The position numbers and the translations under genes are program-made. DNA of 42,971 nt from a virus (taxonomy: Duplodnaviria; Heunggongvirae; Uroviricota; Caudoviricetes): the IMG/VR virus record IMGVR_UViG_2579778686_000011. One strand, 5' to 3'. Under the pieces are notes generated by a model that searched no databases, was not told the origin of the DNA, and saw only the letters and a list, made by a program, of their open reading frames with translations. Below are positions 4,084 to 6,627 of the stretch, in pieces. How positions within the stretch are numbered: position 1 is the first letter of the stretch; each line of letters starts with the position of its first letter.

Positions 4084-4234
4084 TGTTAGGTATTTTAGAC
4101 GTTACTAGATTAAAAAGCATTAGTTCAGGAGTGAATTGACATTCTCATTTTTCATGGCACAGGGTAGATCTGGCGTGGTTGTCCGCTTTGTGCCAGAAGC
4201 GGACGTTACAATACAATCACTATGCTAATGCGCA

Positions 4235-5305
4235 TTGATATGTGATATAACAATAATCAACCGTTCAAAAAGGAGCATTTATATGAGCAGGATGATAATT
4301 GATACAAATATTCTTTACTCACTAGTTGGTCTGTCGACAAACCAAAAAATAATTAACTCCCCTATAGATCAATTCAAATTATCCATTACGACACCATCAC
4401 TCATAGAAGTGATCTCTAAATATTGCAATGACTTAGGGGCTGTAAAAAAATGCATTAGCCCAATCATAAACGGAAATATTGAACTAATTAGCATTGGTCA
4501 TACTCCAATCTCAAATGAATTTCTTTATAGGTTGCATTTTTCAGACAAAATAGACGAAGTAAAAGATATTATTGATAATGTTAGAGCACTAAAAATATCT
4601 AGAGAGGCTGAGTTTTATAGGTTCATACTCATACTGGTTGTCTCTGGTTTGTTTGAGGTTATTAGAGAAGATGGATACAAGTTTGATAACGATGTACAAA
4701 ATCAAAGTCAACTTAGTCTTGTGCAGACTCTACTTGAATCTAATATGGAATTAATTTTAGACTTCTTTAAAGATGAGTTGCGGAATGGATATATTAATGG
4801 AAATGAGCAGCAATCAGCTTTGAAAGCTTTTGAAACCATGCTTATCGGACTCCTACATGCTTTTCATGTCAACTATCATATGATTAAAACTGACACAGTT
4901 AACATTTCCGGAAGCCAAGACAGACTCAAAAATCTGTATGATAGTATAAAAAATGATAATTTTGATAAAAAGTTTAAAAAATATATGGAGAATCCAATAT
5001 CCCTTGCCTGCAAAAAAAAACACGAATCAGTAGTTGATAACTACCTGAAAGAAATGGAGGAGGGGATTTCTGGCGCTCGTGGGCTTACTAAGAATTCGTT
5101 GAGCTTTCTAATGAGCAAGGTTGAGGATGCATATAAAAATGGTCGTAAATTACGAAAAAATGACATATTTGACTTTCTAATAGTTATTTCTCTAAATATG
5201 CCAGACACTTTGATTTTAACACTTGATAAAGGTTTTTTAAAAGACCTTAAAGATCTTCACCCTAACAGCTATAAAAAGTGTCTGGATTTCGGTTTTGTAA
5301 ATTAA
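4235..5305 (+). CDS. Split PIN-like domain protein in an AT-rich island (340 aa if started at ATG 4283)
   Basis: N-terminus MIIDTNILYSL matches the hhhDTNhh start of PIN/VapC nucleases; C-terminus NDIFDFLIVISL...DTLILTLDKGF resembles the distal PIN acidic strand; about 250 aa of Lys/Asn/Ile-rich sequence lies between. Confidence 0.55.
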   Translation: MICDITIINRSKRSIYMSRMIIDTNILYSLVGLSTNQKIINSPIDQFKLSITTPSLIEVISKYCNDLGAVKKCISPIINGNIELISIGHTPISNEFLYRLHFSDKIDEVKDIIDNVRALKISREAEFYRFILILVVSGLFEVIREDGYKFDNDVQNQSQLSLVQTLLESNMELILDFFKDELRNGYINGNEQQSALKAFETMLIGLLHAFHVNYHMIKTDTVNISGSQDRLKNLYDSIKNDNFDKKFKKYMENPISLACKKKHESVVDNYLKEMEEGISGARGLTKNSLSFLMSKVEDAYKNGRKLRKNDIFDFLIVISLNMPDTLILTLDKGFLKDLKDLHPNSYKKCLDFGFVN

Positions 5306-5602
5306 AAATATATTGATGTAAAATAAAACGCACCCACATTTAACTTAGCTAGACTATATCCTTCAATTATTCTATCTGCTTTTTGTTAAATGTGGGGTTG
5401 CAGATGTTACGAGTCAATTAAATTTGCAAGTCAGGTAGAATTGATAAGAATTGCAATACGAATCCGTGAACATTAATGCTAACGCTAAGTATACGAAAGA
5501 TATTGTAAATATACTTCTTTTTTTGTTTTTAAGTTCTTTTATTTGACAGTAGTTCCATCATTCAATTGCGTATTATCTTCCAATGCCAGTGACACTCCCT
5601 CA

Positions 5603-5695
5603 TTATGAGAGGATTGTGGTAATCAAAAGAAAAATTAATATCACGCCAAGAATATTCGAAACCAACCCTATGGTGTTAAGTCCTGGTGATGTCAT
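5603..5695 (-). CDS. Candidate small hydrophobic peptide (30 aa, MTSPGLNTIGLVSNILGVILIFLLITTILS)
   Basis: Hand-translated from the minus strand; single predicted transmembrane helix; weak RBS; in otherwise ORF-free AT-rich DNA. Confidence 0.2.
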   Translation of the reverse strand: MTSPGLNTIGLVSNILGVILIFLLITTILS

Positions 5696-6075
5696 TTAGT
5701 TTGCTCTAGGTTTATTATTCAGAAAGCAAAGAATATTCGTTAAATTATTATGTTAGCTTTAATTATTAAAAAACATGTTAATTATCATCAAATGAGCACT
5801 TATCATCATTTTAGTCAAAGAGGTAGTGAGTATTCATTCTGGATCATAACTGCCTTCCTGTTTACGCTAGTGTTTTTTAAAGTCGATGTCCGCTCATCGC
5901 TCAAAGCGGACTAGAAGGTTAGCTTGTGTCGGACTTTGCGTATTAAATGACTAGTGGTTGAGCCCCATTTCCACAGAAAAAATCAGAGAAACTATACCCA
6001 ATAGTTGTATTGAATCACTGACGAGACAGCCTCATATTCATCAGGACTGGTGTACGTCCAATACAGGAGGTTGTG

Positions 6076-6165
6076 GTGCTGGTTCTCAAATGTGCGCTGG
6101 CTATTACGGCTGTAATGGCGATTTATTGTCTTGCTATTGTTCTTATGGATCGCCTTTCTGACTGA
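6076..6165 (+). CDS. Candidate small hydrophobic peptide (~30 aa, VLVLKCALAITAVMAIYCLAIVLMDRLSD; GTG start)
   Basis: AGGAGG at 6065-6070 five nt before GTG 6076; overlaps in another frame the 5958..6161 Cys/Gly-rich ORF. Confidence 0.25.
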   Translation: MLVLKCALAITAVMAIYCLAIVLMDRLSD

Positions 6166-6376
6166 TTTCACATTGGCGAGGTAACGGTAGTTAAGTAGAA
6201 TGGCTGCGGGTGCTTGAGGCTATCTGCCTCGGGCATGAACACCAACGGCAGATAGAGAAAAGCCCCAGTTAACATTACGCGTCCTGCAAGACGCTTAACA
6301 TTAATCTGAGGCCAATTTCATGCTAGACACATGTAGGTTAGCCTCTTACGTGCCGAAAGGCAAGGAGAAGCAGGCT

Positions 6377-6532
6377 ATGAAGCAGCAAAAGGCGATGTTA
6401 ATCGCCCTGATCGTCATCTGTTTAACCGTCATAGTGACGGCACTGGTAACGAGGAAAGACCTCTGCGAGGTACGAATCCGAACCGGGCAGACGGAGGTCG
6501 CTGTCTTCACAGCTTACGAACCTGAGGAGTAA
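6377..6532 (+). CDS. hok: Hok/Gef-family type I toxin
   Basis: MKQQKAMLIALIVICLTVIVTALVTRKDLCEVRIRTGQTEVAVFTAYEPEE is collinear with Hok, including the TRK-LCE-R core; AAGGAGA RBS; in-frame upstream ATG at 6320 gives a mok-like leader; hok-like 5' UTR and 3' fold-back elements present. Confidence 0.85.
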   Translation: MKQQKAMLIALIVICLTVIVTALVTRKDLCEVRIRTGQTEVAVFTAYEPEE

Positions 6533-6601
6533 GAGACCCGGCGAGGGAGAAATCCCTCGCCACCTCTGATGTGGCAGGCATCCTCAACGCACCCGCACTT
6601 A

Positions 6602-6627
6602 ACCCGCTTCGGCGGGTTTTTGTTTTT
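6602..6627 (+). terminator. Rho-independent terminator ending the hok transcript
   Basis: CCCGC-TTCG-GCGGG hairpin followed by TTTTTGTTTTT. Confidence 0.7.

What the first reader, a model, noticed from the sequence alone, without database searches (positions are those of the whole stretch)
5306..6170. ORF-poor AT-rich spacer with two candidate small hydrophobic peptides
About 750 bp downstream of the PIN-like gene there is no frame of 60 aa or more on either strand. Hand translation reveals a minus-strand 30 aa peptide (5603..5695, MTSPGLNTIGLVSNILGVILIFLLITTILS) and a plus-strand ~30 aa peptide (6076..6165, VLVLKCALAITAVMAIYCLAIVLMDRLSD) preceded by a consensus AGGAGG. Both look like single-helix membrane peptides of the type I toxin kind. 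The plus-strand one overlaps, in a different frame, the 5958..6161 ORF whose product is Cys/Gly-rich (GGCGAGSQMCAGYYGCNGDLLSCYCSYG), so two mutually exclusive readings exist. Either could be an unannotated small toxin or membrane effector next to the hok locus.
Basis: seen in the sequence. Interest (0 to 1): 0.45.

Follow-up and report, generated by a model that had tools for sequence, protein, structure and literature searches.

The report
Hok-linked small membrane protein gene
The "empty" spacer holds two things: a broken gene left over from an imported gene cassette, and a real, usually unannotated 29-residue membrane protein gene that nearly always sits just upstream of the hok toxin gene in E. 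coli and Shigella.

Summary

- **5306-5911** is the tail of a 1.7-kb AT-rich cassette (4181-5911). Two 24-nt hairpins bound it, and it is shared hairpin-to-hairpin with Serratia, Enterobacter and Proteus.
- **The minus-strand 30-aa peptide (5603..5695)** is the N-terminal stump of a convergent 96-aa two-helix membrane protein gene. That gene is intact in the other genera. Here frameshifts and stop codons break it, and all 72 E. coli copies of the segment are at least 99.8% identical.
- **The plus-strand peptide (GTG 6076..TGA 6165, AGGAGG 5 nt upstream)** is a real small-protein gene.
  - It has 18 distinct alleles in two clades (29 and 34 aa), none with a stop.
  - Its Shine-Dalgarno and start are kept even where the upstream flanks are unrelated.
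  - Changes favour third codon positions (p = 0.003) and dN/dS is 0.35.
  - The EHEC Sakai homolog (XECs145) has published ribosome-profiling support.
  - A hok gene follows 52 of 56 assessable copies, in prophages, a chromosomal site and a plasmid. The Shigella virulence plasmid keeps the small gene beside a decayed hok.
- **The 67-aa Cys/Gly-rich frame** is not under selection.
- **A type I toxin role** has no support. No antisense RNA signal was found, the mRNA is not unusually structured, and the homolog is heavily translated in growing cells. The protein's function is still open.

The parts
4181..4204 (.). Left ('type A') boundary hairpin of the AT-rich cassette: GTCCGCT-TTGTGCCAGA-AGCGGAC.
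   Evidence: This is one of only two matches to the motif in the 43-kb window, where 0.02 are expected. Homology to Enterobacter, Serratia and Proteus starts here. Folding energy is -16.8 kcal/mol, z = -3.8.
4283..5305 (+). 340-aa hypothetical protein, the 'PIN-like' neighbour and the main gene of the cassette.
   Evidence: PGAP calls it WP_022645725.1. It matches no Pfam, PADLOC or NCBIfam family. Homologs are 85-87% identical in Serratia, Enterobacter and Proteus. The AF2 model has pLDDT 91. Foldseek hits are weak (E about 0.7) but include many PIN-domain proteins such as VapC and Utp24.
5330..5401 (.). Stem-loop between the two convergent genes, with a perfect 12-bp stem (5333-5344 / 5385-5396). 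It looks like a bidirectional terminator.
   Evidence: Found (I5). It folds better than shuffles on both strands, z = -4.0 and -3.2, and a UUUUAUUUU run follows it on the minus strand. The stem is invariant in all four genera.
5427..5695 (-). Pseudogene of a 96-aa two-TM membrane protein.
   Evidence: Intact 95-96-aa ORFs occur in Serratia L031 (4131..4421 minus) and Enterobacter L033 (4133..4420 minus). In the window, tblastn finds residues 1-24, 22-64 and 59-91 in three different frames, with two in-frame stops. The window has a 2-nt deletion relative to the other genera at alignment columns 348-349.
5696..5887 (.). Conserved non-coding upstream region of the decayed minus-strand gene. Candidate sigma-70 sites on the minus strand lie at 5743-5714 and 5791-5762.
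   Evidence: Most alignment columns here are identical across the four genera. The 54-aa ORF 5750..5914 loses its frame through 1-nt indels in relatives. IS elements have inserted in the 5306-5890 segment in some E. coli strains, one of them at about 5785.
5888..5911 (.). Right ('type B') boundary hairpin: GTCCGCT-CATCGCTCAA-AGCGGAC. It is the junction between the cassette and the sORF-hok module.
   Evidence: Homology with the other genera ends here. Homology with phage mEp460 and with other E. coli prophages that carry other cargos starts here.
5912..6064 (+). Leader region upstream of the sORF, conserved within the 29-aa clade. A candidate promoter is TTGAAT 6010-6015 / 17 nt / CATATT 6033-6038. 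This promoter is inferred (8 of 12 matches to consensus).
   Evidence: The full 5880-6200 element is conserved at 84-100% in at least 1,636 E. coli genomes, and more weakly on Shigella pINV. It is unrelated to the upstream flanks of other sORF clades. It has no unusual RNA structure.
6065..6070 (+). Shine-Dalgarno AGGAGG of the sORF, 5 nt before GTG 6076.
   Evidence: An SD-like motif at matching spacing is kept in every clade, even where the upstream flanks are unrelated.
6076..6165 (+). sORF: a 29-aa single-TM small protein, M(GTG)LVLKCALAITAVMAIYCLAIVLMDRLSD, plus stop.
   Evidence: Profile hits have E down to 1e-14 against 29-34-aa 'hypothetical' or 'membrane' proteins of E. coli, Shigella and E. 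albertii. None of 18 distinct alleles has a stop. The third-position share of changes is 0.49 (p = 0.0026) and dN/dS is 0.35. The best 19-aa hydropathy window scores 2.58. The homolog XECs145 has Ribo-seq support.
6173..6201 (+). hok promoter (TTGGCG, 17 nt, TAGAAT). It starts 7 nt after the sORF stop codon.
   Evidence: The Rfam sok/hok-leader model starts at 6208.
6208..6627 (+). hok/mok/sok locus. The hok CDS is 6377-6532 and the terminator is at 6601-6618 plus a T-run.
   Evidence: RF01794 scores 115 bits at 6208-6382. PGAP annotates hokD.

Best explanation
The interval is a junction between two unrelated modules.

(1) 5306-5911 is the 3' part of a horizontally transferred, AT-rich, hairpin-bounded cassette (4181-5911). 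The cassette originally carried two convergent genes: the 340-aa PIN-like protein and a 96-aa two-helix membrane protein. In this E. coli lineage frameshifts and stop codons have inactivated the second gene. Its first 24 codons, plus 6 out-of-frame codons, survive as the 30-aa minus-strand ORF. This explains why the stretch is ORF-poor.

(2) 6076-6165 is a genuine gene for a 29-residue single-pass inner-membrane protein. It is translated from its own AGGAGG-N5-GTG signal and belongs to the hok toxin-antitoxin module, not to the phage backbone or the cassette.

Shown:
- The gene is conserved and shows a coding-type substitution pattern in its own frame.
- It keeps its ribosome-binding site in every context examined.
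- A close homolog is translated in vivo.
- It is physically coupled to hok in prophages, a chromosomal site and plasmids.

Inferred, with much lower confidence (about 0.35): the protein works with or on Hok in the membrane, for example as a modulator or tolerance factor, and is not itself a silenced type I toxin. The reason is that its homolog is well translated in healthy growing cells and no antitoxin RNA features are visible.
For: Cassette and pseudogene:
- Homology to Enterobacter, Serratia and Proteus runs exactly 4181-5911, 4185-5907 and 4187-5906.
- GC is 29-33% up to 5887.
- The 95-96-aa minus-strand ORF is intact in Serratia and Enterobacter.
- tblastn splits the window copy over three frames with two in-frame stops.
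- All 72 E. coli copies are at least 99.8% identical and PGAP annotates nothing there.
- IS insertions are tolerated in the segment.

sORF:
- At least 1,636 of 5,426 complete E. coli genomes carry the full 5880-6200 element at 84-100% identity.
- GTG 6073 is GTC in most relatives, whereas GTG 6076 is invariant, or ATG on pINV.
- The SD and start are kept although the upstream flanks are unrelated between clades.
- There are 103 database proteins with E up to 10 in two clades plus intermediates.
- None of 18 distinct alleles has a stop. Changes by codon position are 24/15/38, p = 0.0026. dN/dS of 0.35 is the lowest of the six frames.
- Frameshifted alleles are rare singletons, whereas the main 34-aa allele is indexed in 8,485 blocks of the collection.
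- XECs145 in EHEC Sakai has translatome RPKM 346, RCV 4.35 and coverage 0.99 in LB (PMC5597208 S2 Table).

Linkage to hok:
- hok starts 214-257 nt downstream of 52 of 56 assessable copies.
- The pairing holds in two prophage clades, a chromosomal site, next to higBA and on an IncY plasmid, where PGAP annotates WP_077779993.1.
Against: - There is no direct expression data for the 29-aa clade or for this strain. The Ribo-seq evidence is for a roughly 45%-identical homolog, in a genome with several similar prophages, so multi-mapping is possible.
- dN/dS of 0.35 over 28 codons from 18 related alleles is only moderate evidence.
- The sORF is not more conserved at the DNA level than its 5' leader within the 29-aa clade, so recent common descent accounts for part of the conservation.
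- Linkage to hok could be hitch-hiking. Only 7 nt separate the stop codon from the hok -35, and my sample of loci was partly selected through the sORF itself.
- Stx-phage hok loci (933W, Sakai) lack the sORF. The sORF also persists without a functional hok on pINV and in L013, L054 and L107. Neither gene strictly needs the other.
- The family is confined to Escherichia and Shigella, and no function was tested.
Confidence: 0.8

Rival explanations
1. The 29-aa protein is itself a type I toxin, a second membrane-depolarising peptide beside Hok, kept silent by an antisense or divergent sRNA that has not been recognised yet.
For: It has the size and hydrophobicity typical of type I toxins: a single 19-residue hydrophobic helix with hydropathy 2.58. 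It sits in a toxin-antitoxin neighbourhood. Type I loci often occur in tandem. My promoter scan also missed the known sok promoter, so failing to find an antisense promoter is weak evidence.
Against: No Rfam family and no antisense promoter-like site was found in 5900-6300. The mRNA region is not more structured than shuffles (z = +1.19) and the SD is not stably sequestered. There is no similarity to Hok/Gef or any other Pfam or NCBIfam toxin family. The EHEC homolog has one of the higher ribosome-coverage values in growing cultures (RCV 4.35), unlike a translationally silenced toxin. In the 34-aa clade the sORF lies in an operon-like array directly after other phage genes.
Confidence: 0.12
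2. The conservation is at the nucleotide or regulatory level. The sORF is an upstream leader ORF, or part of an extended hok promoter, whose translation or transcription tunes hok expression. The peptide itself has no function.
For: The stop codon lies only 7 nt from the hok -35, so transcription or translation through the sORF must run into the hok promoter. Within the 29-aa clade the untranslated leader is about as conserved as the ORF. The pairing with hok is nearly obligate.
Against: Between clades the DNA has diverged strongly, yet the reading frame, the length, the hydrophobic helix and the YCL...LMDR motif are all retained, and changes concentrate on third positions. The distance to the hok promoter is not conserved: 7 nt in one clade against about 55 nt plus an extra palindrome in the other. 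The ORF stays intact on pINV and in L013, where hok is gone.
Confidence: 0.1
3. The real gene is the overlapping 67-aa Cys/Gly-rich ORF (5958..6161), or the antisense 59-aa ORF (5992..6171), and not the 29-aa frame.
For: The 67-aa frame stays open within the close E. coli clade, at 44-102 aa from the first start codon. One phage annotation (HannyBb) calls the antisense ORF a hypothetical protein.
Against: The 67-aa frame has a TTG start with no SD. Its N-terminal part and length are not conserved. It collapses to 11 aa on pINV, L029 and L030, and has no start in the 34-aa clade. Changes fall on its first codon position (third-position share 0.19) and dN/dS is 1.2. The antisense frame has stops in 6 of 18 alleles. 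No family matches either ORF.
Confidence: 0.02
4. The truncated 30-aa minus-strand product (5603..5695) is still made and has taken on a role as a single-helix membrane peptide or toxin.
For: The ATG, the first transmembrane helix and the upstream conserved region with promoter-like sites are intact. The ORF ends cleanly after the helix.
Against: It exists only as one nearly invariant allele in 72 genomes, so there is no evidence of selection. The downstream remnants of the parent gene carry further frameshifts and stops, the pattern of neutral decay. The SD is weak. IS elements insert in the segment, one of them in the upstream conserved region, without apparent cost.
Confidence: 0.05

Closest known systems
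XECs145 (Huecker et al. 2017, PLoS One, PMC5597208) and NCBI 'hypothetical/membrane protein' entries of 29-34 aa, such as WP_077779993.1
   Same: Same protein family. They share the single TM helix, the YCL...LMDR(L/M)(S/G)(D/N) C-terminal motif, their own SD, and a position just upstream of a prophage hok gene.
   Different: The window carries the 29-aa clade, about 45-52% identical to the 34-aa clade, with a GTG start and a short basic N-terminus in place of the acidic one. XECs145 was listed with an over-long N-terminal extension and without function. I found no paper describing its linkage to hok.
Type I toxins of E. coli (Hok/Gef, Ldr, TisB, ShoB, ZorO, DinQ, Ibs)
   Same: A small, very hydrophobic, single-helix inner-membrane peptide encoded in a toxin-antitoxin neighbourhood.
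   Different: There is no sequence or profile similarity, no detectable antitoxin RNA and no unusually structured mRNA. The homolog is well translated in growing cells.
mok, the known accessory reading frame of hok loci
   Same: An extra short reading frame that belongs to the hok module and lies 5' of hok.
   Different: mok lies inside the hok mRNA, overlaps hok and acts through translational coupling. The sORF lies wholly upstream of the hok promoter (stop at 6165, hok -35 at 6173, TSS at about 6208). It encodes a conserved membrane helix and can persist without hok.
Regulatory or accessory small membrane proteins of enterobacteria (MgrB, MgtS, PmrR, AcrZ, KdpF); named from my own knowledge of the field
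   Same: Similar size (29-49 aa), one TM helix, constitutive translation, and frequently missed by annotation.
   Different: Those proteins are core-genome genes with identified protein partners. This one is mobile-element borne, restricted to Escherichia and Shigella, and has no known partner.
Phage 'morons' and prophage defence hotspots (for example the P2/P4 hotspots of Rousset et al. 2022, PMC9122126)
   Same: The position between the DUF977 gene and hok holds a different cargo in each prophage. Cargos seen here include RelA/SpoT, YobI NTPase, DUF262+TPR and SIR2+deaminase genes. The AT-rich 340-aa cassette is one such cargo.
   Different: Here each cargo is bracketed by a pair of conserved 24-nt hairpins with identical stems (types A and B), and the same cassette moves hairpin-to-hairpin between genera. 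My searches found no description of this.

Membership tests
Type I toxin-antitoxin toxin (generic definition) | Small (under 60 aa) hydrophobic peptide with one predicted transmembrane helix | tested here: met
   The protein is 29 aa with GRAVY 1.74. Its best 19-aa window, CALAITAVMAIYCLAIVLM, scores 2.58.
Type I toxin-antitoxin toxin (generic definition) | Cognate antisense or divergent sRNA antitoxin with its own promoter and terminator | tested here: inconclusive
   There is no Rfam hit other than the hok leader. No minus-strand promoter-like or terminator-like site lies in 5900-6300. The same scan did not flag the known sok promoter either, so its sensitivity is low.
Type I toxin-antitoxin toxin (generic definition) | Toxin mRNA highly structured and translationally inert in growing cells | tested here: not met
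   Folding of 5912-6210 gives z = +1.19 against shuffles, and the SD region is unpaired in the centroid. The homolog XECs145 has RCV 4.35 and coverage 0.99 in LB.
Type I toxin-antitoxin toxin (generic definition) | Growth arrest or membrane depolarisation on expression | not testable with these tools
   This needs inducible expression.
Hok/Gef (Pfam PF01848) | Significant match to the HOK_GEF profile; about 50 aa with a periplasmic Cys-containing C-terminal domain | tested here: not met
   There is no Pfam hit at E up to 10. hhalign of the sORF profile against Hok gives probability 1.5%. Only 5 residues follow the helix.
sORF family (XECs145 / WP_077779993.1-like small membrane proteins) | Profile similarity, including the YCL...L(M/I)(D/E)R C-terminal motif | tested here: met
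   hmmsearch E-values go down to 1e-14. Alignment A5 has invariant A, V, Y, C and L columns. The exhaustive search returns the same narrow family.
sORF family (XECs145 / WP_077779993.1-like small membrane proteins) | Own Shine-Dalgarno and start codon; length 29-34 aa | tested here: met
   The window has AGGAGG-N5-GTG. Equivalent signals are present in all clades despite unrelated upstream flanks.
sORF family (XECs145 / WP_077779993.1-like small membrane proteins) | Located just upstream of a hok gene on the same strand (hok ATG about 210-260 nt after the sORF) | tested here: met
   In the window the sORF stop is at 6165 and the hok ATG at 6377. This holds for 52 of 56 assessable copies.
96-aa two-TM partner protein of the AT-rich cassette (for the minus-strand peptide) | Uninterrupted ORF of about 95 aa with two hydrophobic helices, convergent to the 340-aa gene | tested here: not met
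   The position and the first 24 residues match, but the rest is spread over three frames with two in-frame stops. The gene is intact in Serratia and Enterobacter.
   There is no Pfam PIN match. The AF2 model is confident (pLDDT 91), but the best Foldseek PDB hits are only E 0.66-3; they include VapC, Utp24 and PAE0151. Invariant D7, D294, D297 and D315 in alignment A6 are compatible with a PIN site.

The most novel reading that the evidence does not exclude
The 29-34-aa protein is a dedicated protein-level component of a large subfamily of hok loci. It would be a membrane partner that sets the threshold for Hok action, either by protecting the carrier cell from leaky Hok or by priming Hok pore formation. 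On this reading these widespread hok/sok loci are protein-plus-RNA-controlled modules, not purely RNA-controlled ones. The orphan copy next to icsP on the Shigella virulence plasmid would then be a retained, functional remnant.
Probability: 0.2. Interest if true: 0.7.

Novelty: new member of a known kind. Interest (0 to 1): 0.45.

Why it matters
hok/sok is the textbook type I toxin-antitoxin system, and the latest survey reports it in nearly 80% of Enterobacteriaceae genomes. That survey examined only 50 nt upstream of hok.

A conserved, translated small membrane protein sits 7-55 nt in front of the hok promoter in at least 30% of complete E. coli genomes. It has been missed by most annotation and is absent from the K-12 hokD locus. 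It is therefore an untested variable in hok biology, whether in toxicity thresholds, phage exclusion or persistence.

BL21(DE3) carries it, so the question can be tested directly.

The case also shows how a frameshifted gene can look like a toxin-like micro-ORF. In addition, it exposes hairpin-bracketed cargo cassettes at a prophage defence hotspot.

Tried and rejected
- **Rfam.** Gathering and permissive scans found only the hok/sok leader. Nothing was found in 5306-6170.
- **Short repeats.** Matches between 5327-5344 / 5520-5536 and the hok 3' end (D3 and D5) looked like a second decayed hok. The match weakens in the other genera, so I treat it as chance.
- **Hok paralogy of the sORF.** Rejected by Pfam and hhalign.
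- **Family libraries.** Pfam, NCBIfam, PHROGs and PADLOC gave nothing meaningful for the sORF, the 96-aa protein or the 340-aa protein.
- **tblastn of the 34-aa peptide against phage records.** It found nothing. A DNA search showed that sequenced Stx-type phages lack the sORF.
- **The 29-aa query.** It was too short for the big protein search. I used a stop-to-stop translation as the first row of an alignment instead.
- **54-aa ORF 5750..5914.** Rejected because its frame is not conserved.
- **Terminator-like hairpin inside the sORF (6100-6119).** It is not conserved in the 34-aa clade.
- **Partner gene next to distant 340-aa homologs.** I looked for the 96-aa partner beside 43-63% homologs and found none.
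- **Literature.** Searches for the peptide strings, the hairpin sequences and the hotspot found nothing except the XECs145 supplementary entry.
Full report
**Context.** The window is a Rac/Qin-like lambdoid prophage of E. coli. It carries dicF and dicB, a DUF977 gene, a 340-aa hypothetical gene at 4283-5305, hokD with an Rfam sok/hok-leader hit at 6208-6382, then rem, ydfU, rusA, Q and tRNAs. The 4200-6400 segment is 100% identical in the top-listed complete E. coli genomes, and 72 genomes carry it in full. In the three annotated copies I inspected, PGAP places no native gene between 5306 and the hok start at 6377.

**Checking the observation.** AGGAGG lies at 6065-6070, 5 nt before GTG 6076. 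The interval without ORFs of 60 aa or more is 5306-5957. Only 5306-5887 is AT-rich, at 29-33% GC. From 5888 onward GC rises to 40-47%. Small hydrophobic ORFs are abundant by chance in such DNA: one search lists 102 ORFs of at least 20 aa in 6 kb. The question therefore had to be settled by comparison with relatives.

**Two modules meet at 5888-5911.** The segment 5306-5890 occurs in only 72 of 5,426 complete E. coli genomes. All copies are at least 99.8% identical and always accompany the 340-aa gene. The segment 5880-6200 occurs in full in at least 1,636 genomes at 84-100% identity and is never annotated. In those genomes it forms the right edge of a variable cargo site between the DUF977 gene and hok. 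Cargos seen there include RelA/SpoT, YobI NTPase, DUF262+TPR, deaminase+SIR2 and integrase genes. BL21(DE3) has no cargo. The break point is a 24-nt hairpin, GTCCGCT-N10-AGCGGAC, at 5888-5911. A second copy lies at 4181-4204. These are the only two matches in the window, against 0.02 expected.

**The AT-rich part and the minus-strand peptide.** The 340-aa protein has homologs of 85-87% identity in Serratia liquefaciens, Enterobacter hormaechei and Proteus terrae. DNA homology to those loci runs exactly from hairpin to hairpin: 4181-5911, 4185-5907 and 4187-5906.

- In Serratia and Enterobacter the supposedly non-coding tail contains an intact convergent ORF of 96 or 95 aa. It reads MTSPELNAIGLISNILGVILIFFFGLPQPSHDEGVSLG...FACLALVLMIMGFALQLLSILPDL and has two hydrophobic helices.
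- In the window, a 2-nt deletion relative to the other genera and further indels break this gene.
The 30-aa peptide is therefore the stump of a pseudogene spanning about 5427-5695.
- The perfect 12-bp stem at 5333-5344 / 5385-5396 lies between the two convergent genes. It is invariant in the four genera, folds far better than shuffles on both strands, and is followed by a U-run on the minus strand. It is probably a bidirectional terminator.
- The stretch 5696-5887 is the conserved upstream region of the dead gene. The 54-aa ORF there is not frame-conserved. IS elements have inserted in the 5306-5890 segment in some strains, one of them at about 5785.
- More distant homologs of the 340-aa protein (43-63% identity) sit beside DarTG or BrxC/D-helicase genes and lack this partner gene.
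- The 'PIN-like' label is plausible but unproven.

**The plus-strand peptide.** In an alignment of eleven loci, the 90 nt from GTG 6076 to TGA 6165 are the most conserved part of the element. GTG 6073 is GTC in most relatives, so 6076 is the start.

- tblastn found the same ORF at 72% identity, with an ATG start, on 135 Shigella and EIEC virulence plasmids. It lies about 290 bp upstream of icsP, next to a hok leader truncated after about 80 nt.
- A 43%-identical, PGAP-annotated 34-aa protein (WP_077779993.1) lies upstream of hok on an IncY plasmid.
- A profile search of 5.8 billion proteins returned 103 entries with E up to 10. All named entries come from E. coli, Shigella or E. albertii and are labelled 'hypothetical' or 'membrane protein'. 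They form a 29-aa clade, a 34-aa clade (MSDDISLAMEGALAVVAVVGVYCLVVFLMDRLGN) and intermediates.
- An exhaustive HMM search of 1.84 billion cluster representatives added almost nothing, so the family is narrow.
- No Pfam, NCBIfam, PHROG or PADLOC family covers it.
- Across clades the upstream flanks are unrelated, yet an SD and a start codon at proper spacing are always present.
- In 18 distinct alleles the sORF frame never contains a stop. Minimum changes by codon position are 24/15/38, giving a third-position share of 0.49 and binomial p = 0.0026. Pairwise dN/dS is 0.35, the lowest of the six frames.
- Hücker et al. 2017 listed the 34-aa-clade homolog as the novel intergenic gene XECs145 of EHEC Sakai. 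They reported translatome RPKM 346, ribosome-coverage value 4.35 and coverage 0.99 in LB, and a predicted inner-membrane location (PMC5597208).

**The competing frames.** The 67-aa Cys/Gly-rich frame stays open inside the close E. coli clade. However, its start and N-terminal half are not conserved. It collapses to 11 aa on pINV and in two other lineages, and it has no start in the 34-aa clade. Substitutions fall on its first codon position and dN/dS is 1.2. The antisense 59-aa frame has stops in 6 of 18 alleles. Both readings are rejected.

**Relation to hok.**

- The sORF stop (6163-6165) lies 7 nt before the hok -35 (6173-6178). The hok leader model starts at 6208.
This sample is biased, because many loci were fetched through the sORF itself.
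- The pairing recurs in two prophage clades, in a chromosomal site flanked by cytochrome-c-peroxidase-like and BOF-domain (YgiW-type) genes, next to higBA, and on the IncY plasmid.
- Exceptions run both ways. Stx-phage hok loci begin their homology at about 6189 and lack the sORF. pINV and three other loci keep the sORF without an intact hok.
- At K-12 hokD, relBE abuts hok and the sORF is absent. This probably explains why the gene has escaped study.

**Is it a type I toxin?** It has the size and hydrophobicity of one. Against that:

- I found no antisense RNA signal.
- The mRNA is not unusually structured (z = +1.19).
- The SD is not sequestered.
- There is no similarity to Hok.
- The EHEC homolog is among the better-translated novel ORFs in growing cells.

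I therefore favour a constitutively made small inner-membrane protein that belongs to the hok module and may modulate Hok. This functional step is inferred, and I put it at about 0.35. The toxin reading is not excluded; I put it at about 0.12.

**Literature.** No paper in the library contains the peptide strings in its main text. The recent Hok survey analysed only 50 nt upstream of hok. A UPEC small-protein preprint does not mention the sORF.

**Verdict.**

One peptide is a genuine but already catalogued and uncharacterised small-protein gene with a previously unremarked linkage to hok. The other is a pseudogene fragment. The third reading is spurious.
- Novelty: a new member of a known kind.
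- Interest: moderate.

Noticed in passing
window 4181-4204 and 5888-5911; also L033 2899-2922, L057, L072, L125, L134, L149, L052: Cargo genes at this prophage hotspot are bracketed by two 24-nt hairpins with identical stems (GTCCGCT/AGCGGAC). Their loops differ and are conserved: type A is yTGTGCCArr and type B is nnTCGCTCAw. In an IMG/VR scan 48 hairpins were type A and 32 type B. Type A has a conserved upstream flank and a variable downstream flank; type B is the reverse. A...B pairs lie 1.2-2.5 kb apart, and B-A tandems lie about 18 nt apart in cassette arrays. The same cassette is shared hairpin-to-hairpin among E. coli, Enterobacter, Serratia and Proteus. No T-run follows either hairpin, so they are not intrinsic terminators. 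No paper in the library contains these sequences.
   Followed up: partly
L014 (Shigella flexneri pWR501, NC_002698.1 220153-220239), about 290 bp upstream of icsP: An intact 29-aa sORF homolog (MLVLKGTLAIAAVMTIYCLIVVLMERFSD, ATG start, AGGAGG) and an 80-nt remnant of a hok leader lie in the upstream region of the virulence protease gene icsP. They occur on 135 Shigella and EIEC plasmids and are unannotated there.
   Followed up: partly
L016 1366-1449 and the equivalent position in L017-L024: In the 34-aa clade a second small hydrophobic ORF (MNWPEAFAITGVAMAIAFLVYVICRWG, 27 aa) lies directly upstream of the sORF and overlaps the stop of the preceding DUF551-type gene. Together they form a run of micro-membrane-protein genes before hok.
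   Followed up: no
window 4283-5305 and loci L031, L033, L035, L037, L039, L040: The 340-aa protein has no family assignment but gives a confident AF2 model, with four beta-strands split by a large helical insert and weak PIN-like fold hits. Its distant homologs sit beside DarTG and BrxC/D-helicase genes. It looks like an uncharacterised single-gene defence candidate.
   Followed up: partly
L005 (BL21(DE3), NZ_CP081489.1) 2204-2613: BL21(DE3) has no cargo at the hotspot. A deletion fuses a shortened DUF977 gene (119 aa) to the region just upstream of the sORF, so the DUF977 stop overlaps the sORF start region. The sORF and its SD-like CAGGAGA are retained.
   Followed up: no
L013 (E. coli CUVET21-424) 2501-2830; also L054, L107: In a recurrent arrangement the sORF (SD weakened to AGGGGG in L013) is followed by unrelated DNA instead of hok; in L013 this DNA carries a minus-strand DUF1971 gene. 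The sORF-hok junction has therefore recombined more than once.
   Followed up: no
window 6320-6532: The mok-like upstream start (ATG 6320) is in the same frame as hok, giving a 70-aa N-terminally extended Hok. Several pipelines call this 70-aa product as the HOK_GEF gene, while PGAP calls the 51-aa product.
   Followed up: no
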